Both the position numbers and the translations under genes were made by a program. DNA of 33,224 bases from IMG/VR virus record IMGVR_UViG_2698536361_000001. One strand, written 5' to 3'. Source of the DNA: a virus (Duplodnaviria > Heunggongvirae > Uroviricota > Caudoviricetes). The notes under the pieces are model-generated. The model searched no databases, was not told the DNA's origin, and saw only the letters and a program-made list of their open reading frames with translations. This document shows, piece by piece, positions 19-8,162 of the stretch. The number at the start of each line of letters is the position of its first letter. Within the stretch, counting starts at the first letter, position 1.

Positions 19-147
19 TTACTCCCTGACAGGGTTCGTAGGCCACTCAATATCAGGTGCAGTTGATGTATCAACACGGTTCAGCAGCATCCGATACTTT
101 TTCCAGGCTTCCAGCAACGGGGTTTCTTCCTCCGTTGCATATACAGC
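19..147 (-). pseudogene. tfa: 3' remnant of a tail fibre assembly (Tfa) gene: 42 codons, no start codon, in-frame TGA immediately upstream
   Basis: Minus-strand frame translates to [42 protein letters not shown], matching the conserved C-terminus of lambda-family Tfa proteins as I remember them; lies directly downstream of the stop of the 158..451 ORF. Confidence 0.55.
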
Positions 148-157
148 TCACCTTTTT

Positions 158-451
158 TCACCCACGATTAACCAACAGCCAGACCAGCAGACACGCCACC
201 ACCGGCACAGCAAAATCCATCAGGCTTGCCACATCCCATGCACGTGTATCAAAACCGCCCCACCACGGCATATTCATTCGCTTGCCATGCCCGAACATTT
301 CGATCCAGCGATATTCTGCCTGGGTGTGTTCACGCGCAATGAAGAACGTACAACCGGCTATCGCCCCGTAAGCCCAGTTCCCGGTAAAAAGACCAATCAG
401 TAGCTGCGCAGCCACAGCACAAAGCGCATGAAGGAAAGGTGTTATATCCAT
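158..451 (-). CDS. Hypothetical small membrane protein (about 97 aa from MDITPF; the ORF track extends to 466 with a non-ATG first codon)
   Basis: ORF 158..466; AGGA 5 nt upstream of the ATG at 451; three hydrophobic stretches (e.g. ALCAVAAQLLIGLF, AVPVVACLLVWLLV); no family recognised. Confidence 0.5.
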   Translation of the reverse strand: MDITPFLHALCAVAAQLLIGLFTGNWAYGAIAGCTFFIAREHTQAEYRWIEMFGHGKRMNMPWWGGFDTRAWDVASLMDFAVPVVACLLVWLLVNRG

Positions 452-460
452 TTTCATCCT

Positions 461-488
461 ACCCAATAAAACGGGGCGCTCGGCCCCT
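461..488 (-). terminator. Putative intrinsic terminator downstream of the 346-aa gene
   Basis: Minus-strand GGGGC-CGAGC-GCCCC hairpin followed by GTTTTATTGGG. Confidence 0.4.
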
Positions 489-493
489 TAATA

Positions 494-1534
494 TTATTTA
501 GACGCAAGCGCCGCCTCAATTGCAGATAATCTTTGTCTTAATTCTGCGTTTTCTTCTTCCAGTGCTGTTATTCTGTCGTCTGACTCTCTGGCTACCTGAA
601 CAAGCAAGCCAGTAACACCAGAATAATCTACTGTGTAATAACGTTCACCTTCTTCACCTTCCGATCCGCTCGCACCGTCCTGATATTTCATTGCGGAACC
701 TACAACTTCTGGGATTGCTTCCAGAGCTTCCTGTGCAATGACACCAGCATAGGGCATACCGTTTTCTTTAAGCGTGTATGTATAGCCGTTCATTTTACGG
801 ATGCGGTCGGTTGCATTATCGATCACCTGAATGTTGTCTTTCAGATCCCGGTCGGAATGCTGGTTAAATGCGGTGGCATGACATGCACCATTAACGCTTA
901 ACATATAGGTGTTATCGGTATTTTTCTGCGCATAGAACATATAAGCGCCACCATCAACACCGACTTCATAAACAACAGGACGGCTGGAGTTGCCCCACAA
1001 TTGAGCAGTAACACCAGCATAAGCGGTTCCCTGTGTGTTTAATGTCATGGTTGACCCATGATTGGCATATTTGATCTGTAATGTGTCGGTGTAATCAAAT
1101 TTAATAAGCGCGTTACTTCCACGCTTGCTGTATGACATAAGGCAGTTACCCATTTTGAGGTATCCGCTGTCACCGGGAAAAATCATCGTACCGCCATAAA
1201 GGTTGGTAAAGTCCCAGCAAATGTTTGTCCCGTTATCGTTCAGGTTAAGGCGCGCCATTGCGTTACCTGGACTGTCTATCCATTTTTTGAGGTATAGTTC
1301 GCAATACGCATCCTCAACACCTGCCGTCCTGTGAGTTGAGCGGAGTTTTCTCCCAAATATAGCTCCGCTAGTTGGCAATACCTGCTGATACCATGAAGCA
1401 GACCAGTCACCAACGATTTCATCTTTGCTGTCTACATATAATTTTGTTGCGTAGCTTCCTTGATCGTTTTTTAATTTGCTAACGTCGGATTTTAGCGTTT
1501 TGATGTCATCAGGAATTACTGTCGATGTAGCCAT
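494..1534 (-). CDS. Tail fibre / tailspike-like protein (346 aa) with a C-terminal intramolecular chaperone (peptidase S74-like) autoprocessing domain
   Basis: ORF with AGGAAGAAAA-ATG RBS; C-terminal 120 aa show the S74 pattern (HSDRDLKDNIQVID...GVIAQEALEAIPEVV...coiled coil RITALEEENAELRQRLSAIEAALASK), as in T5 pb1 and endosialidase chaperone domains. Confidence 0.7.
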   Translation of the reverse strand: MATSTVIPDDIKTLKSDVSKLKNDQGSYATKLYVDSKDEIVGDWSASWYQQVLPTSGAIFGRKLRSTHRTAGVEDAYCELYLKKWIDSPGNAMARLNLNDNGTNICWDFTNLYGGTMIFPGDSGYLKMGNCLMSYSKRGSNALIKFDYTDTLQIKYANHGSTMTLNTQGTAYAGVTAQLWGNSSRPVVYEVGVDGGAYMFYAQKNTDNTYMLSVNGACHATAFNQHSDRDLKDNIQVIDNATDRIRKMNGYTYTLKENGMPYAGVIAQEALEAIPEVVGSAMKYQDGASGSEGEEGERYYTVDYSGVTGLLVQVARESDDRITALEEENAELRQRLSAIEAALASK

Positions 1535-1543
1535 TTTTCTTCC

Positions 1544-1825
1544 TCACATCCAGCCACGAAGTTGATGCTCAACAGCAACCACGTATTCATCGAATAATGA
1601 CGATATTTGCGAATCATTAATGATGCGCACGTTTACAAAATATCCGTCTTCCTTAACACATACCGGTTCGCCATCTTCAGTCAGTTCTCCGGTTTCTTTG
1701 TACACGTTACCTATCACGTCGATAAGAATATCATCCTGCATCGACTCGTCATCATAATAGCCAATACTCTCCATAAAGGCCGAAAAGTCGGCCCTGTCTT
1801 CAAATTTGAGTGTTAAATCTTTCAT
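1544..1825 (-). CDS. Hypothetical acidic 93-aa protein, translationally coupled to stf
   Basis: ATG at 1825 overlaps the stf stop as TAATG; Asp/Glu-rich; no family recognised. Confidence 0.55.
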   Translation of the reverse strand: MKDLTLKFEDRADFSAFMESIGYYDDESMQDDILIDVIGNVYKETGELTEDGEPVCVKEDGYFVNVRIINDSQISSLFDEYVVAVEHQLRGWM

Positions 1826-4035
1826 TAGATTGACTCCCCCATTTGTGCCTCAGTTAATTCTTTATGCCAAATGCGTAAATTTTTCACATGACCGAACAGG
1901 TGTCTGTTGCCACTGGATGATTGTCCACCGATATTAATATTACCGGCAGTATAACGTTGCAATGTATGCAGAGACGGGGAGCTGCCACCTAAAATTCCAT
2001 CAACAACAACCTGCAACTGTTTATCTTCTGTAAACTTAAAGCCAGTAACAAATTTCCTTTTCTCTCTATTCCCATATGCTTTATATTCTGTTTTTGTTCC
2101 TTTGCCATTGGTGATAATTAGCCTTTTACCACGAGTGGTAAAACCAAAATACATATAACTTTCATCAGAAACTTCAGTCGTCGCCCCTGTAATTGAGATA
2201 TTAAGCAAACGCGCAGAGCCTTCTAAATTAGGCATTTCAGAATCCCAATTAACATTAACTTCCATGAGAACACTAACTGGTGGAGTTGCCCAATTGAAAG
2301 GTATAGGTATGATTACCTGGTCACTTGCTCTCGTGGCACCGACCTCTGTTGTGATGATAAAAGATGACGCGTTTAGTCCCTTTTCGAATTGAGGGGTTGT
2401 TAACATTAATTTATCGCCAGACTTGATTGATCGTTGATGTGCTCCAAACTCAAAACGCCCATACATATTTTTTGCTTCTGGTGATTTGTAGGTAAACTCA
2501 ACACGAATCCATCCATTAGACTCTCTGAATATGTTATAAGTTGCCGCCTCACCTCCAGAATAACTCAACATATCGCCAGTCTCGCAATCAATATATGCGC
2601 CAGCGGTCAGTGTGTTACTTGAGCCATCGTCGTTAACATATGATATTCTTGGACGCAACGTGATAATACCATCCCCACTTACTTTTTTAACTCTGCAGGA
2701 TAAAGTAACTGATTCATTTGCCGAAACTGAAATAACCCTGGTATATCCAGTAGAAATTAATGTCGCCCTTTCAGTTGTGGATGTTTCTTTAACGCCAAAC
2801 AAACCATAACTGAAACCATACTCATCAACTCCCGTGGTAATAGTTAAGTTAGCAGTGTCATAGTTCCACGATACTGGTGTATTCGTATAAGAAAAAGTAT
2901 TCGTTCTCTGACCTTCAATGAGCAGACCATCTTTTTCAAAACGTGGTTCATTTATCGCTGATTCAGCAAAACACCCAGACTTATCTATATACGTTGCAGT
3001 TGACGCCCTGGTAAATGAAACAACCTTTTCAGACGGCAATGCAATAACATCGTCACCAACTGTGATGCTCTTATATCCAGGAGCAAACCCGGTAATCATA
3101 TCCAGTGAATCGTTAAACGGTATCCACACCTCAGGTAACGGCTGTAAGACATATTTATACGGCTCCGCAGCCTGGCTTGCGTACTCTCTGGCTGCATCTT
3201 CGCTTGCTTTAGCTGCCGTCTGGCTTGCTGCCGATGCTTTCGCTGAGTTCGCAGCCGCTGTTTCGCTCGCCTTTGCGTTGGTTTCACTGGTTTTTGCTGC
3301 TTTTTGACTGTTAGCTGATGCAGTGGCAGAAGCAGCCGCCGCACTTGCAGAACCAGCTGCAGCACTCTCGCTTTCGGCTGCTGCAGCCTGACTACTTTTC
3401 GCCGCAGTTTCGCTGGCTTTGGCATTCGTTTCGCTGGTTTTCGCTGCCGTCTGGCTGGACTTCGCGTTGGTTTCGCTCGTCTTTGCGGCTGTCTCACTGT
3501 TTTTCGCGTTGGTTTCTGATTTTTTGGCTGCAGTCGCGGAGTTTGCCGATGCAGTCTGTGAGGCCGCTGCCGCCTGTGCGCTGTTAGCTGCGTTCGTTTC
3601 TGAGGTTTTCGCCGCGTTCTTCGATGATGCCGCTGCTGTTTCGGATTTCTTTGCCGCCGCTGCGCTCTGAGAGGCGGCTTCAGCGTTGCGTGCCGCTTCT
3701 TCCACCATTTCCTCAAAACGACGCAATGCCTCCGGCATGACATCATCTTCCGTCATGGCACCGAGAAAATCATTCAGCGTCCCCGGCTTAGAATCTTCAT
3801 ACACGGTGATGGTCCCGGCATGTGAAGGCGGAAAACCTTCAACCAGCAGGATAACGCTGTACTGGCCATACTCAACATCCATGCTGTAACGCCCGGCTTC
3901 ATCCGGATTTTCAGAGGCCACCGTGTTCACCAGTACCGTGGTGCTGTTACGCTTTGCCTTCAGTTGAATAGTGCAGTTCTGTATTGGTTTTCCCGCACCA
4001 TCTTTCAGCACACCTGAGATTTTTACTGCTGCCAT
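1825..4035 (-). CDS. stf: Side tail fibre protein Stf, chimeric: lambda-like N-terminus, Ala/Ser/Thr-rich repeat shaft, divergent C-terminal region ending in a LamG/ConA-like motif
   Basis: N-terminus MAAVKISGVLKDGAGKPIQNCTIQLKAKRNST matches lambda Stf; repeat units KTSETNAKxS; C-terminus GHVKNLRIWHKELTEAQM resembles a LamG jelly-roll end. ATG at 4035 preceded by GGAG (the ORF track starts at a GTG at 4041). Confidence 0.85.
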   Translation of the reverse strand: MAAVKISGVLKDGAGKPIQNCTIQLKAKRNSTTVLVNTVASENPDEAGRYSMDVEYGQYSVILLVEGFPPSHAGTITVYEDSKPGTLNDFLGAMTEDDVMPEALRRFEEMVEEAARNAEAASQSAAAAKKSETAAASSKNAAKTSETNAANSAQAAAASQTASANSATAAKKSETNAKNSETAAKTSETNAKSSQTAAKTSETNAKASETAAKSSQAAAAESESAAAGSASAAAASATASANSQKAAKTSETNAKASETAAANSAKASAASQTAAKASEDAAREYASQAAEPYKYVLQPLPEVWIPFNDSLDMITGFAPGYKSITVGDDVIALPSEKVVSFTRASTATYIDKSGCFAESAINEPRFEKDGLLIEGQRTNTFSYTNTPVSWNYDTANLTITTGVDEYGFSYGLFGVKETSTTERATLISTGYTRVISVSANESVTLSCRVKKVSGDGIITLRPRISYVNDDGSSNTLTAGAYIDCETGDMLSYSGGEAATYNIFRESNGWIRVEFTYKSPEAKNMYGRFEFGAHQRSIKSGDKLMLTTPQFEKGLNASSFIITTEVGATRASDQVIIPIPFNWATPPVSVLMEVNVNWDSEMPNLEGSARLLNISITGATTEVSDESYMYFGFTTRGKRLIITNGKGTKTEYKAYGNREKRKFVTGFKFTEDKQLQVVVDGILGGSSPSLHTLQRYTAGNINIGGQSSSGNRHLFGHVKNLRIWHKELTEAQMGESI

Positions 4036-4046
4036 ATCCACTCCAC

Positions 4047-4099: not shown

Positions 4100-4699
4100 T
4101 CAGAACTTATAACCGACACCCACGATGAAACCGTCAGTGCGCCAGTCACCACTGCCGGAGCCTTCATAAGCAATATCAATGGCCACGGATTCGGTCGGGT
4201 TAAACTGCACGCCAGCTCCCCACGCCAGAGACGTGTTGCTGTGGCGACCGTCATCACTTCCGGTCAGCACATCGTGCGTTTTCCCCTTGTTGTCAGTTAC
4301 GCGGAGGTAATCCCCGGAAAAAGTCGAAACACGGCTGTAAGCCATACCCGCCATCGCATACGCGCTGAACCATTCATTCACGCGCACAGACGGCCCCGCC
4401 ATCACGCTGAACCAGCGGTTACGCACGGAATCTTTATGCCAGCGGGTATCGCTGTAACGGGTCAGCTGACGATTCTTGTATCCTGCATAACTGAATGACG
4501 TCACCAGCCCCAGCGTGTCCGTAAATTCATAACGGTATTTCACGTTAATGCCCTTCAGGTCATCACTGCCTGGCATATCAGTATGGGTCTGAAGATACCC
4601 GGCGCTTAGTGTGGACTGATGCTCTGCTGCGCTCGCTGGCGTACCAGCGGCAACCAGCCAGACTACTGCGGACAGAATAACAGCACATAATTTACGCAT
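4100..4699 (-). CDS. lom: Outer membrane protein Lom (Ail/Lom family beta-barrel)
   Basis: 199 aa, signal peptide MRKLCAVILSAVVWLVAAGTPASA, ends ...GFIVGVGYKF; matches lambda Lom; RBS GAGAGG before the ATG. Confidence 0.9.
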   Translation of the reverse strand: MRKLCAVILSAVVWLVAAGTPASAAEHQSTLSAGYLQTHTDMPGSDDLKGINVKYRYEFTDTLGLVTSFSYAGYKNRQLTRYSDTRWHKDSVRNRWFSVMAGPSVRVNEWFSAYAMAGMAYSRVSTFSGDYLRVTDNKGKTHDVLTGSDDGRHSNTSLAWGAGVQFNPTESVAIDIAYEGSGSGDWRTDGFIVGVGYKF

Positions 4700-4766: not shown

Positions 4767-7700
4767 TCAGCTGATACTGATGCCTGCAGTGGCTTTCTTC
4801 ATCACAACAACCAGCAAATCGCTGATACTTGCTGTGGGATACCAACCATTTACCCACCATGCTGATACAGAAAACTCCAGTGTCATTACACCACTGCCTG
4901 CAGGCATATCAATAACACCCGTGTAAATCAGAGTATTATCCAGAGCCGTTCGGTTATAAATTTCAGCCCCGTTTTTCTTCACTATCAGGCGGCATGACGA
5001 ATAAGTATCGCTATTCTCCCGCTCATGTCTGGCACCGCAGAAAGCCACCGCTGGAATAACAATTTGCCGGTCAAACGACTGATCGTCATAAACCCTGACG
5101 GTAATAGTCCCTGATGGCCACCGCTCCGGTGCACGGGAGTCCCGGGGGAAAGCTTTGCCCACTGTTTTAACGAGATCGCCTTCAATCTGGTTCGCGGACA
5201 GTTTTCCCAGAACCCGACAGTTCTCGTTAATCGTGACATTATTGAGCGTCCCGGAGTTCGCATTCACGTTACCGCTGATATCGGCATTTTTCGCCGTCAG
5301 CCGCCCGTCCGGTGTCAGGGAAAATACCGGAGGATTGCCGCCACTGGTAATGGTGGGAGCCGTCAGATACTTCAGGAACACTTCGTTCATGAATATCTGG
5401 TTGCCCTGCGCCACAAACATCGGCGTTTCATTCCCGTTTGCCGGGTCAATAAACGCGATACGGTTAGCGGCAACCAGGAACTGGCTCAGTTTGCCTTCCT
5501 CCGTATCCTCCATACTAAGGCCAAGCCCCGCGACATAATGCCTGCCGTCTTCGGTCTGCTCAATTTTGACGCCCCACATGGCATTCCATTTATCGTTGGC
5601 GTCCTTCCACTCTTTCGAAAACTCCTCCAGTTTGCTGGCGTTATCCTCCGTCAGCTCGACTTTTTCCAGCAGCTCCTTGCCGAGATGGGATTCGGTTATC
5701 TGGCCTTTGAAAAAATCCAGGTAACCTTCCGCATCATCGCTCGGCTGACCAACAGCCTCCACGAATGCCGATTTGCCAACGGTGTTCACACTGCGGATAT
5801 AAAAGTAATAATCATGGCCCGGTTTGATATTGATACTGGCAGCTATCCAGTACAGCGCCGTACCAAGATAGCGGGCTGTGGTCTCAACCTGCCTGATATC
5901 GGTAATCCGCTTTTCCGAGAACCAGAACTCAAACTGTACCGTCGGATCATAAACCGCAAGATGCGGCGTGGCAGTTATCTGAAAATAGCCCGGCGTCAGC
6001 TCAATCCGCGACGGCGCTGCCGGTGCGGCAATCCGGAACGATACCGATGCCGGATCGCCCTGCTGTCCCCACGCATTTACCGCCCGGACCGTCAGCGTGT
6101 AACGCCCCAGCGCCAGTTGCCTGAAGCGGTATGTGGTTTCCGTCGTCCTGGCCGTGCTGACCAGCCGCTCACTGCCGTCATCCGCTGCCACGGTCAGGCG
6201 AAGCATAAAGCTCACCCCCTTCACCACCTTCGGCGTATCCCAGCGCGCCAGCACCTGATACTCCCCGCTGTCTGAGGTGACTTCGGCAGTCAGGTGCTGC
6301 ACCGCAGGCGGCGTGACACCATTCACCGTGCCGCTCTGGTCGCCGTCAAAGTGCGCCCCGTTATCCACGATGGCCTCTTTTTCCGGCACATGCTGCACGG
6401 CGGTGATGGCATACGTGCCGTCGTCGTTCTCACGGATACTCACGCAGCGGAACAGGCGCTGGCGCAGCGTCGGCAGCTTCAGCCCCCATACGCTGTATTC
6501 AGCAACACCGTCAGGAACACGGCTCACTTTTACCTTCACGCCGTCGGTGACGGACTGAACCTCCACGCTGACCGGATTGCCACTTCCGTCAACCAGACTT
6601 ATCAGCGTGGTACCGGAGGATGGCAGCGTGATTTCACGGTCGAGCGTCAGCGTCCGGGTCTGGCTGTTCACCGCCAGCACGCGCCCGCCGATGCTGATAC
6701 CCGCATAGTCATCATCACAGATTTCAATGACATCCCCCGGTACATGGCGAAGCCCTTCCGCACCCACGCTGAAGTCCACGGTCTGCGTTTCCAGCAGTTC
6801 CGTTTTAATCAGCCACAGCCCGGCGCGGTGCGCCTGCCCCCGGCTGGTACAGCCAAAGGCATCCATCTTCGTGACGTTACGACCGTAACGGGCAATGGCC
6901 TGCGTATCTTCAACAAGCTCTGTCGCCGTCTCCCAGCCGTTGTTCGGGTCAATCCAGTTCACCTCAACGGCATTATGGCGGTCCTTCAGGGCGCTGAAGC
7001 TGTAGCGGAACGGCGCGCCATCATCCGGCATCACCACATTACTGCGGTTATAGGTCCACACCTTATCTGATGGTCGGTCCTGCACGAACGTCAGCGTCTG
7101 CCCGTTCCATACCGGCATACAGCGCATCGCCGAGCAGAAATCACTGAGCACATCCCACGCCTTGCGCTGTGTGGTCAGCCAGGCATTACAGGTGATGCGC
7201 GGCTCCGTGCCACCAAAGCCATCCGGCACCGACTGGTCGCAATTCTGGCCGATGACATACAGCGCCCATTTGTCCACATCCGCCGCACCGAGACGCTTCC
7301 CCATGCCGTAGCGCGGATGGGTCAGCATATCCCACAGACACCAGGCCATGTTGTTGCTGTATGCTGGCTTAAACGTTCCGTCCCAGATACCGCTGTATTG
7401 TCGCGTCTGCGGGTTATAGTTCGACGGCACCTGCAGAATGCGCCCGCGAAGATGATAATTACGACTCACCTGCTGGCTGCCGAACTGCTCCGAGTCCACC
7501 TGTACGCTGACCAGTGCCGTGTTCGGGTAGCACTGTTTCACATCGATGATTTCGGTGTATGACGACCAGAGCGTTTTGTTCTGCAGCTGGTCTGTGGTGC
7601 TGTCCGGCGTCATCCTGCGCATCCGGATATTAAACGGGCGCGGCGGCAGGTTATCCACCACCACCGAGGCCAGATACTGCGAGGTGGTTTTGCCTTTAAT

Positions 7701-8162
7701 GGTGATGTCTTTTTCCGTCACCCAGCCACCGTTACGCTGTATCTGAACCAGCAGGCGGACTTCCGACGGATTCCGGTCCCCCTTTGAGGTGGTTTCCACC
7801 AGTGCCTGCACACCGAAGGTAAAGCGCAGACGGTCGATGTTTGCAGACGTGATGGTCCGGGTAATCGGCGTGTCGTACTTCACTTCCGTACCCAGCACCG
7901 TCTCGGAGCCGGAGGATTCAAATCCCTCCGGCGGTGTCTGCTCCTGCTCACCTGCCCGGAACACCACCGTGACACCGGAGATATTGGTATTCCCCTCACT
8001 GTCCAGCACCGGCGTACTGTTCAGCAGCACACTTTTTAATCCGTCCACCGGACCTTCAATCGGCCCTTCACTGATGGCGTCTATCACGCTCAGCATCTGG
8101 GATGATTTCAGGTTGTCCTTCGCTTCGCGCGGGGTATGCCCCTTACTGCTGCCTTTACCCAT
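4767..8162 (-). CDS. J: Tail tip host-specificity protein J (central tail fibre)
   Basis: 1131 aa, [20 protein letters not shown]..., same length and order as lambda J. Confidence 0.95.

What the first reader, a model, noticed from the sequence alone, without database searches (positions are those of the whole stretch)
494..1534. Short stand-alone protein carrying a C-terminal intramolecular-chaperone (S74-like) autoprocessing domain
The last 120 residues (from about Ser227, HSDRDLKDNIQVID... through the coiled coil RITALEEENAELRQRLSAIEAALASK) match the pattern of self-cleaving chaperone domains found at the ends of long tailspikes and fibres. Here it is attached to only about 226 N-terminal residues and sits where Tfa would be. 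Predicted behaviour is trimerisation and autocleavage before Ser227, giving a small fibre or tip protein, possibly a second receptor-binding or depolymerase-like appendage. The domain assignment rests on remembered motif patterns.
Basis: partly seen in the sequence, partly recalled or inferred. Interest (0 to 1): 0.6.

Follow-up and report, generated by a model that had tools for sequence, protein, structure and literature searches.

The report
Short self-cleaving phage tail fibre
This gene in an E. coli lambda-like prophage encodes a small tail-fibre protein whose built-in folding helper probably cuts itself off. It is the third gene of a fibre cassette shared by several unrelated coliphage groups, so it is a correct but fairly ordinary finding.

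Summary
Window 494..1534 (minus strand) is a 346-aa ORF. Residues 227-278 hit Pfam PF13884 (Peptidase_S74, intramolecular chaperone) at E 4.8e-14, well above threshold, and the Ser227/Lys232 dyad is conserved. The mature part would be 24.9 kDa.

It is a common gene, not a curiosity. PHROG 4563 "tail fiber protein" matches end to end. It is 100% identical in many E. coli genomes and about 97% identical in cultured lambdoid phages (2G7b, Tritos, HannyBb).

New here: it is the third gene of a conserved cassette, made of a long lateral fibre with a conserved C-terminal region carrying GTA-spike-fibre and lectin-like (Laminin_G_3) matches, a ~92-aa protein, and a short S74 fibre. The cassette recurs in lambdoid, T5-like, T1-like and 9g-like siphoviruses. 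All third-gene proteins share the N-terminal motif MxTxTxIPxDIxxLK followed by a coiled coil, but carry different tips.

Most likely it is a trimeric accessory or distal receptor-binding fibre that docks by its N-terminus on the primary side fibre and matures by autocleavage before Ser227. Published models exist for T5-like relatives (IrisVonRoten Gp22-24; DT57C LtfA/LtfB is the functional analogue).

No Tfa-family or depolymerase domain was detected. A Tfa scar lies further downstream. Verdict: new member of a known kind.

The parts
494..1534 (-). Gene for the 346-aa short fibre protein with a C-terminal S74 chaperone domain (stop codon 494..496)
   Evidence: ORF list; PHROG 4563 'tail fiber protein' matched 1-346 of 346, E 1e-220; 100% identical copies in E. 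coli annotated 'tail fiber domain-containing protein'; pooled pN/pS 0.28 over 27 alleles
1430..1534 (-). Residues 1-35: conserved N-terminal motif MATSTVIPDDIKTLK followed by a heptad/coiled-coil start; proposed docking (anchor) segment
   Evidence: M1, T5, I7, D10, I11 and L14 are invariant in 16 homologues of 38-99% identity. The same motif heads a different 227-234-aa S74 protein in the same slot, IrisVonRoten Gp24 and KarlJaspers bas06_0035. Helix 9-29 in the AF2 model. At least 89% aa identity among 27 alleles
1085..1429 (-). Residues 36-150: variable beta-rich region; residues 36-92 are the most divergent part of the protein
   Evidence: Minimum aa identity 32% for residues 36-92, with pN/pS 0.52; beta strands in the AF2 model; from about residue 61-92 onward it matches the C-terminal ends of long fibres (PHROGs 6921, 5668, 10316)
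857..1084 (-). Residues 151-226: knob domain with the motif WGNSxRPvVyEvG...FYAQkN...vNG just before the cleavage site
   Evidence: Family profile versus PDB: T4 gp34 C-terminal region 5nxh E 3.7e-10, 4uxe 1.1e-9; W180, G181 and R185 invariant; AF2 pLDDT 83-90
497..856 (-). Residues 227-346: intramolecular chaperone (Peptidase_S74) domain ending in a long helix; Ser227 codon 854..856, Lys232 codon 839..841
   Evidence: PF13884 E 4.8e-14; S16 gp37; MyRF ICA; codons read from the sequence
1539..1545 (-). Ribosome-binding site GAGGAAG overlapping the stop codon of the 93-aa ORF
   Evidence: Sequence upstream of the start. Similar 9-11-nt spacing between the ~92-aa gene and the S74 gene in L003, L004, L006 and IrisVonRoten
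465..487 (-). Terminator-like hairpin GGGGCCGAGCGCCCC followed by GTTTTATT, directly after the stop codon
   Evidence: Consensus scan. It lies in the segment that is absent from phage 21. Function not shown
1544..1825 (-). 93-aa ORF always found between the long fibre gene and the S74 gene; small alpha/beta protein of unknown role (adaptor or assembly factor)
1825..4041 (-). 738-aa side-tail-fibre protein: lambda-Stf-type N-terminus, Ala/Ser/Thr/Lys-rich shaft, and a conserved C-terminal ~440 aa with GTA-spike-fibre and ConA/lectin-like matches; proposed carrier of the short fibre
   Evidence: PF08400 E 1.4e-68, PF13385 (below its cut-off); NF048003. The C-terminal part is conserved across phage groups with different N-termini, with invariant blocks at 301-381 and 705-729
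158..466 (-). Small membrane protein gene (probably 97 aa, starting at 451) flanking the cassette
   Evidence: PHROG 1443; 94.8% identical DNA in phage 21, annotated as a 2-TMD membrane protein; PGAP calls it 97 aa

Best explanation
The gene encodes a short homotrimeric accessory tail-fibre protein of a lambdoid (pro)phage.

Shown by sequence:
- It has four parts: a conserved N-terminal segment (MATSTVIPDDIKTLK plus coiled coil), a variable beta-rich region, a T4-gp34-like knob, and a C-terminal S74 intramolecular chaperone with a Ser227/Lys232 dyad.
- It is the last gene of a tightly spaced three-gene cassette: long side fibre, 93-aa protein, short S74 fibre.

Inferred from characterised homologues (T5 pb1, K1F endosialidase, S16 gp37):
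- The chaperone domain nucleates trimer folding from the C-terminus.
- It then cleaves the chain just before Ser227 and leaves, exposing the distal tip of a 24.9-kDa mature subunit.

Inferred from comparative genomics:
- The conserved N-terminus docks the trimer onto the conserved C-terminal region of the 738-aa side fibre, possibly with the 93-aa protein. This would give a two-part or branched lateral fibre.
- The exchangeable middle and tip of the short protein would then add or change specificity for a variable surface glycan, probably O-antigen.
- The gene is optional, because phage 21-type phages carry the long fibre and the small protein without it.
For: - Domain and dyad.
- Mechanism in homologues: in T5 pb1 Ser1264/Lys1269 act as the dyad, the mature chain ends at Thr1263, and chaperone removal unmasks receptor binding (PMC4690869).
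- Fibre nature of the mature part: PHROG 4563 full length, and 132-342 matches positions 988-1200 of the 1210-position PHROG 6578 fibre profile, whose N-terminal part matches this window's own Stf. There is a gp34 knob. Dozens of 600-1400-aa fibres end in the same knob plus chaperone.
- Cassette: homologues of 38-44% identity lie in the order long fibre, ~92 aa, S74 protein in a T5-like 111-kb contig, a 59.6-kb queuosine-gene contig and a 50-kb contig. The same order is seen in IrisVonRoten bas32_0022-0024 and KarlJaspers bas06_0037-0035.
- Adjacency: in 17 cultured phages the N-motif ORF starts about 10-20 nt after the ~92-aa gene (coordinates).
- Modular anchor: in 80 IMG/VR loci the slot after the 93-aa gene holds, where the contig extends far enough to judge, either the 346-aa type or a 227-234-aa S74 protein sharing only the first ~32 residues.
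- Carrier conservation: the long fibres have different N-termini but a conserved C-terminal ~440 aa.
- Functional gene: pN/pS 0.28, with the chaperone part at 0.16. It is present in plaque-forming phages 2G7b, Tritos, HannyBb and PhiR63_1.
- Optional gene: phage 21 has 72 bp where this window has 1154 bp.
- Precedent: BASEL preprint 10.1101/2024.09.12.612763 models IrisVonRoten Gp24 (same N-motif) attached to proximal fibre Gp22. DT57C LtfB attaches through LtfA (PMC4728585, PMC10713586).
Against: - No experiment on this protein or a close relative was found. Cleavage, trimerisation, virion incorporation and receptor binding are all inferred.
- The AF2 monomer model is poor (pLDDT 63.7, pTM 0.33) and gave no significant Foldseek match. 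No multimer model could be run, so the docking site is unknown.
- The long fibre has its own globular lectin-like C-terminal domain and works without the short fibre in phage 21-type phages. Docking at its tip is therefore not obligatory, and the geometry (in series or branched) is open.
- The N-motif is unrelated to the DT57C LtfB / phiEco32 gp15 anchor.
- Some database curators annotate relatives as 'lateral tail fiber chaperone'.
Confidence: 0.65

Rival explanations
1. It is a trans-acting assembly chaperone for the 738-aa side fibre, a functional replacement for Tfa, and not a virion component.
For: It lies downstream of the fibre gene, where Tfa-type chaperones are usually encoded. Relatives are annotated 'putative lateral tail fiber chaperone' or 'chaperone of endosialidase' (KarlJaspers bas06_0035, HMD-P4, JK16). 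The 227-234-aa alleles would leave a mature part of only about 115 aa.
Against: - S74 chaperones described so far act in cis on the chain they end (PMC4690869).
- Phage 21-type phages have the homologous long fibre and ~92-aa protein without this gene, so that fibre type evidently does not require it.
- The mature part carries fibre modules (coiled coil, gp34-like knob) identical in kind to the C-terminal ends of 600-1400-aa fibres.
- Residues 36-92 are hypervariable, as expected for an exposed binding surface.
- No Tfa-family Pfam hit was returned.
Confidence: 0.1
2. It is a genuine short fibre but attaches directly to the tail tip (J / tip complex) or elsewhere, independently of the 738-aa side fibre. 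The conserved gene order would then reflect only co-transfer of receptor-binding genes.
For: No direct evidence for the docking partner was obtained. The long fibre has its own terminal lectin-like domain. In DT57C, weak density near the tail tip was tentatively assigned to LtfB (PMC10713586).
Against: The same N-terminal motif is used in lambdoid, T5-like, T1-like and 9g-like phages, whose tail tips differ. The features shared by all of them in the regions examined are the conserved C-terminal part of the long fibre and the ~92-aa protein. In every locus examined the gene follows the ~92-aa gene.
Confidence: 0.15
3. It is a non-functional recombination remnant: the 3' end of a longer tail-fibre gene left behind in a prophage hot-spot for cargo genes.
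For: Residues from about 84 onward are homologous to the C-terminal ends of long fibres. The region is mosaic and carries a Tfa scar and, in related prophages, sitABCD cargo.
Against: - It has its own start codon and ribosome-binding site.
- Its length of about 307-366 aa and its N-terminal motif are conserved across homologues down to 38% identity.
- It is under purifying selection.
- It is present in cultured phages of four groups.
- The apparent 254-aa truncations are contig-edge artefacts.
Confidence: 0.05

Closest known systems
IrisVonRoten (Bas32, Tequintavirus) Gp24 distal 'T-shaped' lateral tail fibre, with Gp22 and Gp23 (bas32_0022-0024)
   Same: Same three-gene order: long fibre, 92-aa protein, fibre with a C-terminal chaperone. 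The 92-aa proteins are 39% identical. The N-terminus MVTKTVIPTDITKLK carries the same motif, and the chaperone domains are 30% identical. The long fibres share the conserved C-terminal region (via the T5-like locus L003). The published AlphaFold-Multimer model places Gp24 on proximal fibre Gp22.
   Different: Gp24 is 574 aa and is described as having two receptor-binding domains (Gp12-like and T5-like). The window protein is 346 aa, aligns with Gp24 only at the N-motif and the chaperone, and has a gp34-like knob instead. The host phage is lambdoid and temperate, and its carrier fibre has a lambda-Stf N-terminus.
KarlJaspers (Bas06, Drexlerviridae) bas06_0035 'putative lateral tail fiber chaperone' and the 227-234-aa allele in lambdoid prophages (e.g. 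L036:4292-4996)
   Same: Same slot after the ~92-aa gene, same N-terminal motif, and a C-terminal PF13884 domain.
   Different: Only the first ~30 residues align with the window protein. Their mature part is about 115 aa and lacks the knob.
T5 L-shaped tail fibre pb1, C-terminal receptor-binding domain plus intramolecular chaperone (PDB 4UW8, 5AQ5)
   Same: C-terminal S74 chaperone with a Ser/Lys dyad at +5 spacing. Cleavage before the Ser releases the chaperone and unmasks an O-antigen-binding tip (PMC4690869). Both are lateral fibres of a siphovirus.
   Different: pb1 is one 1396-aa chain attached directly to the tail. No sequence-level match to pb1 was obtained, even with the family profile.
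DT57C / DT571/2 LtfA-LtfB branched lateral fibres (and phiEco32 gp14-gp15)
   Same: A second fibre protein with its own S74 chaperone, encoded after the primary fibre. It attaches through a short conserved N-terminal segment to the primary fibre and extends O-antigen host range (PMC4728585; PMC10713586).
   Different: The anchor sequences are unrelated (phiEco32 gp15 N-terminus). The LtfA carrier itself ends in an S74 domain, whereas the carrier here ends in a lectin-like domain. No ~92-aa partner is described there.
Phage S16 gp37 long-tail-fibre tip (PDB 6f45) and T4 gp34 C-terminal knobs (5nxh, 5nxf, 4uxe)
   Same: These are the only solved structures with significant sequence matches: the gp37 chaperone region (E 2.6e-7) and the gp34 knob (E 3.7e-10) with the family profile.
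   Different: Both are parts of long myovirus fibres of hundreds to over a thousand residues, not a short separate protein.

Membership tests
Peptidase S74 / intramolecular chaperone of tail fibres and spikes (Pfam PF13884) | Profile match above the curated threshold | tested here: met
   E 4.8e-14, 52.8 bits against a cut-off of 22, residues 227-278, profile 1-57 of 58
Peptidase S74 / intramolecular chaperone of tail fibres and spikes (Pfam PF13884) | Catalytic Ser with Lys five residues downstream at the start of the domain | tested here: met
   S227-D-R-D-L-K232. Both residues are at least 90% conserved in 16 and 53 homologues and align with SDRRIK of S16 gp37. Same spacing as T5 Ser1264/Lys1269
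Peptidase S74 / intramolecular chaperone of tail fibres and spikes (Pfam PF13884) | Located at the extreme C-terminus, after a fibre/beta-structure domain, and ending in a trimeric coiled-coil helix | tested here: met
   The domain spans 227-346 of 346. It is preceded by a gp34-like knob. Helix 304-345 has pLDDT 84-91. The trimeric state itself was not tested
Peptidase S74 / intramolecular chaperone of tail fibres and spikes (Pfam PF13884) | Autoproteolytic release of the domain after trimer folding | not testable with these tools
   Needs expression with S227A/K232A controls
Two-part lateral fibre of the IrisVonRoten Gp22-Gp23-Gp24 type | Gene order: long fibre with conserved lectin-like C-terminal region, then a ~92-aa protein, then a fibre with a C-terminal chaperone | tested here: met
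   Window 1825..4041, 1544..1825 and 494..1534. Same order. Alignments A3 and A4
Two-part lateral fibre of the IrisVonRoten Gp22-Gp23-Gp24 type | Shared N-terminal motif MxTxTxIPxDIxxLK on the distal protein | tested here: met
   10 of 17 identical to Gp24; invariant positions listed; the motif is also on alternative alleles
Two-part lateral fibre of the IrisVonRoten Gp22-Gp23-Gp24 type | Physical attachment of the distal protein to the proximal fibre | not testable with these tools
   Only single-chain prediction was available. The literature model is itself a prediction
DT57C LtfB / phiEco32 gp15 type branch fibre | N-terminal ~45 aa homologous to phiEco32 gp15 | tested here: not met
   No alignment of the N-termini. 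It works like this family but is not a member
Tfa-type tail fibre assembly protein (lambda Tfa / Mu Tfa) | Match to Tfa family profiles | tested here: not met
Tailspike / depolymerase | Enzymatic domain (beta-helix lyase/hydrolase, sialidase, esterase) in the mature part | tested here: not met
   Pfam found no domain other than S74 and weak coiled-coil matches. Every annotated PHROG match is a tail-fibre or other virion structural family. A mature part of 226 aa with a coiled coil and a knob leaves little room

The most novel reading that the evidence does not exclude
The ~92-aa protein, together with the 15-35-residue N-terminal motif, could form a portable 'socket and plug'. Such a system would let otherwise unrelated siphoviruses (lambdoid, T1-like, T5-like, 9g-like, perhaps rV5-like myoviruses) mount and swap short, self-maturing tip fibres on one conserved lectin-ended lateral fibre. 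The 92-aa protein would then be a new kind of fibre adaptor or assembly factor, and this cassette a general host-range exchange unit among coliphages.
Probability: 0.3. Interest if true: 0.55.

Novelty: new member of a known kind. Interest (0 to 1): 0.3.

Why it matters
This is practical rather than conceptual.

- **Prevalence and naming.** The gene is present in roughly a tenth of complete E. coli genomes (512 of 5426 with at least 80% coverage) and in cultured temperate and virulent coliphages. Its names are inconsistent: tail fibre, endosialidase chaperone, fibre chaperone, hypothetical.
- **Use of the cassette.** If it is the exchangeable third part of a cross-family lateral-fibre cassette, that gives a rule for annotating these loci. 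It would also give a handle for predicting or engineering host range, by swapping the region between the conserved N-terminal anchor and the chaperone.
- **Open question.** The uncharacterised 92-aa partner stands out as the piece whose role is unknown.
- **Limit.** None of this overturns current understanding of phage fibres.

Tried and rejected
- **NCBIfam.** No family for the 346-aa, 93-aa or 102-aa proteins.
- **Depolymerase idea.** Rejected, because no enzymatic domain was found.
- **Tfa idea.** Rejected, because no Tfa-family hit was returned and the Tfa scar lies elsewhere.
- **Membership in the LtfB / phiEco32 gp15 anchor type.** Rejected.
- **254-aa truncated 'isoforms'.** These are contig-edge artefacts.
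- **Scan of one genome per species.** It found a full-length copy only in Escherichia ruysiae, plus distant S74 domains in unrelated bacteria, so it was uninformative on spread.
- **Literature.** Searches for HannyBb and ECOR13 prophage papers found nothing on this gene.
- **First dN/dS run.** It was biased by saturated pairs and was replaced by pooled pN/pS.

Full report
**1. What is at the coordinates**

Window 494..1534 holds a 346-aa ORF on the minus strand. It starts with ATG, 4 nt after a GAGGAAG ribosome-binding site that overlaps the stop codon of the preceding 93-aa ORF. It lies at the end of a lambda-type tail gene row on the same strand:
- J-like tip protein, 4767..8162
- Lom-like protein, 4100..4699
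- 738-aa side-tail-fibre protein, 1825..4041
- 93-aa ORF, 1544..1825
- the 346-aa ORF
- small membrane-protein ORF, 158..466

Terminator-like hairpins on the minus strand sit after J, after lom and directly after the 346-aa ORF (487..473).

**2.

- Pfam PF13884 (Peptidase_S74, 'chaperone of endosialidase') matches residues 227-278 with E 4.8e-14 and 52.8 bits, against a cut-off of 22.
- The motif is S227-D-R-D-L-K232. Ser227 and Lys232 are at least 90% conserved in alignments of 16 short homologues (38-99% identity) and of 53 mixed homologues.
- In T5 pb1 the corresponding Ser1264/Lys1269 form the catalytic dyad, the mature chain ends at Thr1263, and removal of the chaperone unmasks receptor binding (PMC4690869).
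- The calculated mature fragment (1-226) is 24.9 kDa and the released part is 13.2 kDa.

**3. It is a common, conserved gene**

- PHROG 4563 ('tail fiber protein', 346 positions) matches end to end at E 1e-220.
- Identical DNA occurs in many complete E. coli genomes: 512 of 5426 carry at least 80% of it, annotated 'tail fiber domain-containing protein'.
- Cultured lambdoid phages 2G7b, Tritos, HannyBb and PhiR63_1 carry the surrounding region, including this gene, at about 97% identity. ESCO3 carries a related copy annotated 'endosialidase chaperone'.
- Pooled pN/pS over 27 distinct full-length alleles from IMG/VR loci is 0.28. By region:

| Region (aa) | pN/pS | Note |
|---|---|---|
| 1-35 | 0.41 | very few changes; at least 89% aa identity |
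| 36-92 | 0.52 | most divergent part; aa identity down to 32% |
| 93-150 | 0.22 | |
| 151-226 (knob) | 0.21 | |
| 227-346 (chaperone) | 0.16 | |

. These are uncorrected and pool non-independent pairs, so they are only a rough sign of purifying selection.

**4. Anatomy of the mature part**

- Residues 1-15 (MATSTVIPDDIKTLK) are followed by a helix (9-29 in the AF2 model). In homologues this helix is extended by a variable number of heptad repeats of the TLKSDVS type.
- Residues from about 61-92 onward match the C-terminal ends of long fibres. These include PHROG 6921 (738-position profile), PHROG 5668 (1567 positions) and PHROG 6578 (1210 positions), plus dozens of 600-1400-aa representatives in the all-against-library search.
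- PHROG 6578 is informative. Its positions 1-197 match this window's own Stf, and its positions 988-1200 match the 346-aa protein. In other phages, therefore, one chain carries what is split here.
- Residues 151-226 carry the motif WGNSxRPvVyEvG...FYAQkN...vNG. With the family profile this matches the C-terminal knob region of T4 gp34 at E 3.7e-10.
- Pfam returned no enzymatic domain, and every annotated PHROG match is a tail-fibre or other virion structural family.

**5. The surroundings change the picture: a three-gene cassette shared across phage groups**

Distant short homologues (P0089 326 aa, P0046 348 aa, P0042 338 aa; 38-44% identity) lie in the same order, long fibre (653-783 aa) then ~92-aa protein then S74 protein, with 9-11-nt spacing. 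The backbones are:
- a T5-like 111-kb contig, downstream of pb4 and LtfC
- a 59.6-kb contig with queuosine genes
- a 50-kb contig

The same order is annotated in BASEL phages IrisVonRoten (Tequintavirus; bas32_0022, 0023, 0024) and KarlJaspers (Drexlerviridae; bas06_0037, 0036, 0035).

The ~92-aa proteins are 38-54% identical. The long fibres have different N-termini: lambda Stf type (PF08400) here and in the 59.6-kb contig, a different N-terminus in the T5-like contig (which follows pb4 and LtfC), and another type in the 50-kb contig. All share a conserved C-terminal ~440 aa with invariant blocks at 301-381 and 705-729 in window Stf numbering.

tblastn finds the ~92-aa protein in 181 cultured phage records. 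For 17 phages listed in both tables, the ORF bearing the N-terminal motif starts about 10-20 nt after it.

**6. The N-terminus behaves as a modular anchor**

- In 80 IMG/VR loci holding the 93-aa gene (94-100% identity), the next slot holds one of two proteins wherever the contig extends far enough to judge: the 346-aa type, or a 227-234-aa protein that shares only the first ~32 residues (66-72%).
- The shorter protein also has a PF13884 domain (E 4.6e-6). It is 59% identical to KarlJaspers bas06_0035.
- IrisVonRoten Gp24 (574 aa) shares the N-motif (MVTKTVIPTDITKLK) and the chaperone domain, but nothing in between.
- So three different distal bodies share one N-terminal segment and are always found beside the same two partner genes.

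**7. The gene is optional**

Phage 21 and many other lambdoids carry the long fibre, the ~92-aa gene and the membrane-protein gene without it. Window 460..1614 (1154 bp) corresponds to 72 bp in phage 21, so the gene plus its terminator-like hairpin is an insertion/deletion unit.

**8. Best explanation**

It is a short trimeric accessory fibre. Its C-terminal chaperone would fold the trimer and then cut itself off before Ser227 (inferred from T5 pb1, K1F endosialidase and S16 gp37). Its conserved N-terminus would dock on the conserved C-terminal region of the side fibre, possibly with the 93-aa protein (inferred from gene order and the pattern of conservation). Its variable middle and tip would supply an extra or alternative specificity, most plausibly for O-antigen.

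The last point is an analogy with two published cases. IrisVonRoten Gp24 is modelled on proximal fibre Gp22 in preprint 10.1101/2024.09.12.612763. In DT57C, LtfB needs LtfA for attachment and extends host range to O81 (PMC4728585, PMC10713586).

The anchor here is unrelated in sequence to the LtfB / phiEco32 gp15 anchor. The protein therefore works like that system but belongs to the IrisVonRoten Gp24 type.

**9. Rivals**

- A trans-acting chaperone for the long fibre is suggested by some annotations. It fits poorly with the cis action of S74 domains, the fibre modules and hypervariable region of the mature part, and the fact that phage 21-type fibres exist without it.
- Direct attachment to the tail tip cannot be excluded. 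It would however require one N-motif to fit four different tail tips.
- A dead remnant is contradicted by conservation and by the gene's presence in plaque-forming phages.

**10. The Tfa and depolymerase points**

- The 346-aa protein returned no Tfa-family Pfam hit.
- A true Tfa 3' remnant (…[28 protein letters not shown]) lies at about 34..147 on the minus strand. PGAP annotates it as an incomplete tail fibre assembly protein in UPEC132. This suggests the present cassette replaced a lambda-type stf-tfa pair.

**11. Limits**

- Only single-chain prediction was available, and the monomer model of the 346-aa protein is poor. Fold searches with it are not evidence.
- Cleavage, trimer state, virion incorporation, docking partner and receptor are all untested.

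**12. Verdict**

The gene is a new (lambdoid) member of a known kind of phage part. The more interesting residue is the cross-family cassette and its uncharacterised 92-aa partner.

Noticed in passing
window 34..147 (-): Remnant of the 3' end of a Tfa-type tail fibre assembly gene (…[38 protein letters not shown], preceded by a stop). PGAP annotates the same stretch in UPEC132 as an incomplete tail fibre assembly protein. It suggests the present fibre cassette replaced a lambda-type stf-tfa pair.
   Followed up: partly
window 1544..1825 (-): 93-aa ORF of unknown function (PHROG 1361), translationally coupled to the fibre gene by a 1-nt overlap. It is always present with the lectin-ended lateral fibre in lambdoid, T1-like, T5-like and 9g-like phages, and partially in rV5-like phages. 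The AF2 model is confident (pLDDT 83) but has no informative structural neighbour.
   Followed up: partly
window 158..466 (-), probable start at 451: Small two-helix membrane protein (PHROG 1443, unknown function) conserved next to the fibre cassette. It is 94.8% identical at DNA level in phage 21. Its role next to tail fibre genes is unexplained.
   Followed up: no
window 1825..4041 (-): The side-fibre C-terminal ~440 aa (NCBIfam 'GTA head spike fiber' domain plus a sub-threshold Laminin_G_3 match) is only 39-52% identical in most loci that carry near-identical 93-aa and 346-aa genes. Recombination therefore shuffles the three genes independently, while blocks 301-381 and 705-729 stay invariant.
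   Followed up: partly
proteins P0078-P0080 (557-564 aa, E. coli; up to 12 contigs): These proteins have an N-terminal PF20691 TET-associated glycosyltransferase domain joined to the same knob plus S74 C-terminus. This could be a real fusion or a recombination chimera.
   Followed up: no
L036:4292-4996 and about 27 other IMG/VR loci: Alternative 227-234-aa S74 protein in the same slot. It shares only the N-terminal ~32 residues and would leave a mature part of about 115 aa. It is 59% identical to KarlJaspers bas06_0035, which is annotated as a 'chaperone'.
   Followed up: partly
L089 (UPEC132) and L002 (phage 21), downstream of the cassette: The sitABCD iron/manganese transporter genes sit just beyond the fibre cassette as prophage cargo. 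In UPEC132 a partial isocitrate/isopropylmalate-family dehydrogenase pseudogene lies nearby, possibly marking integration at icd.
   Followed up: no
protein P0015 and other 254-aa 'truncated' versions: Hundreds of database entries starting at Met93 are contig-edge artefacts. In the one example checked, the gene begins 29 nt from a contig end.
   Followed up: yes
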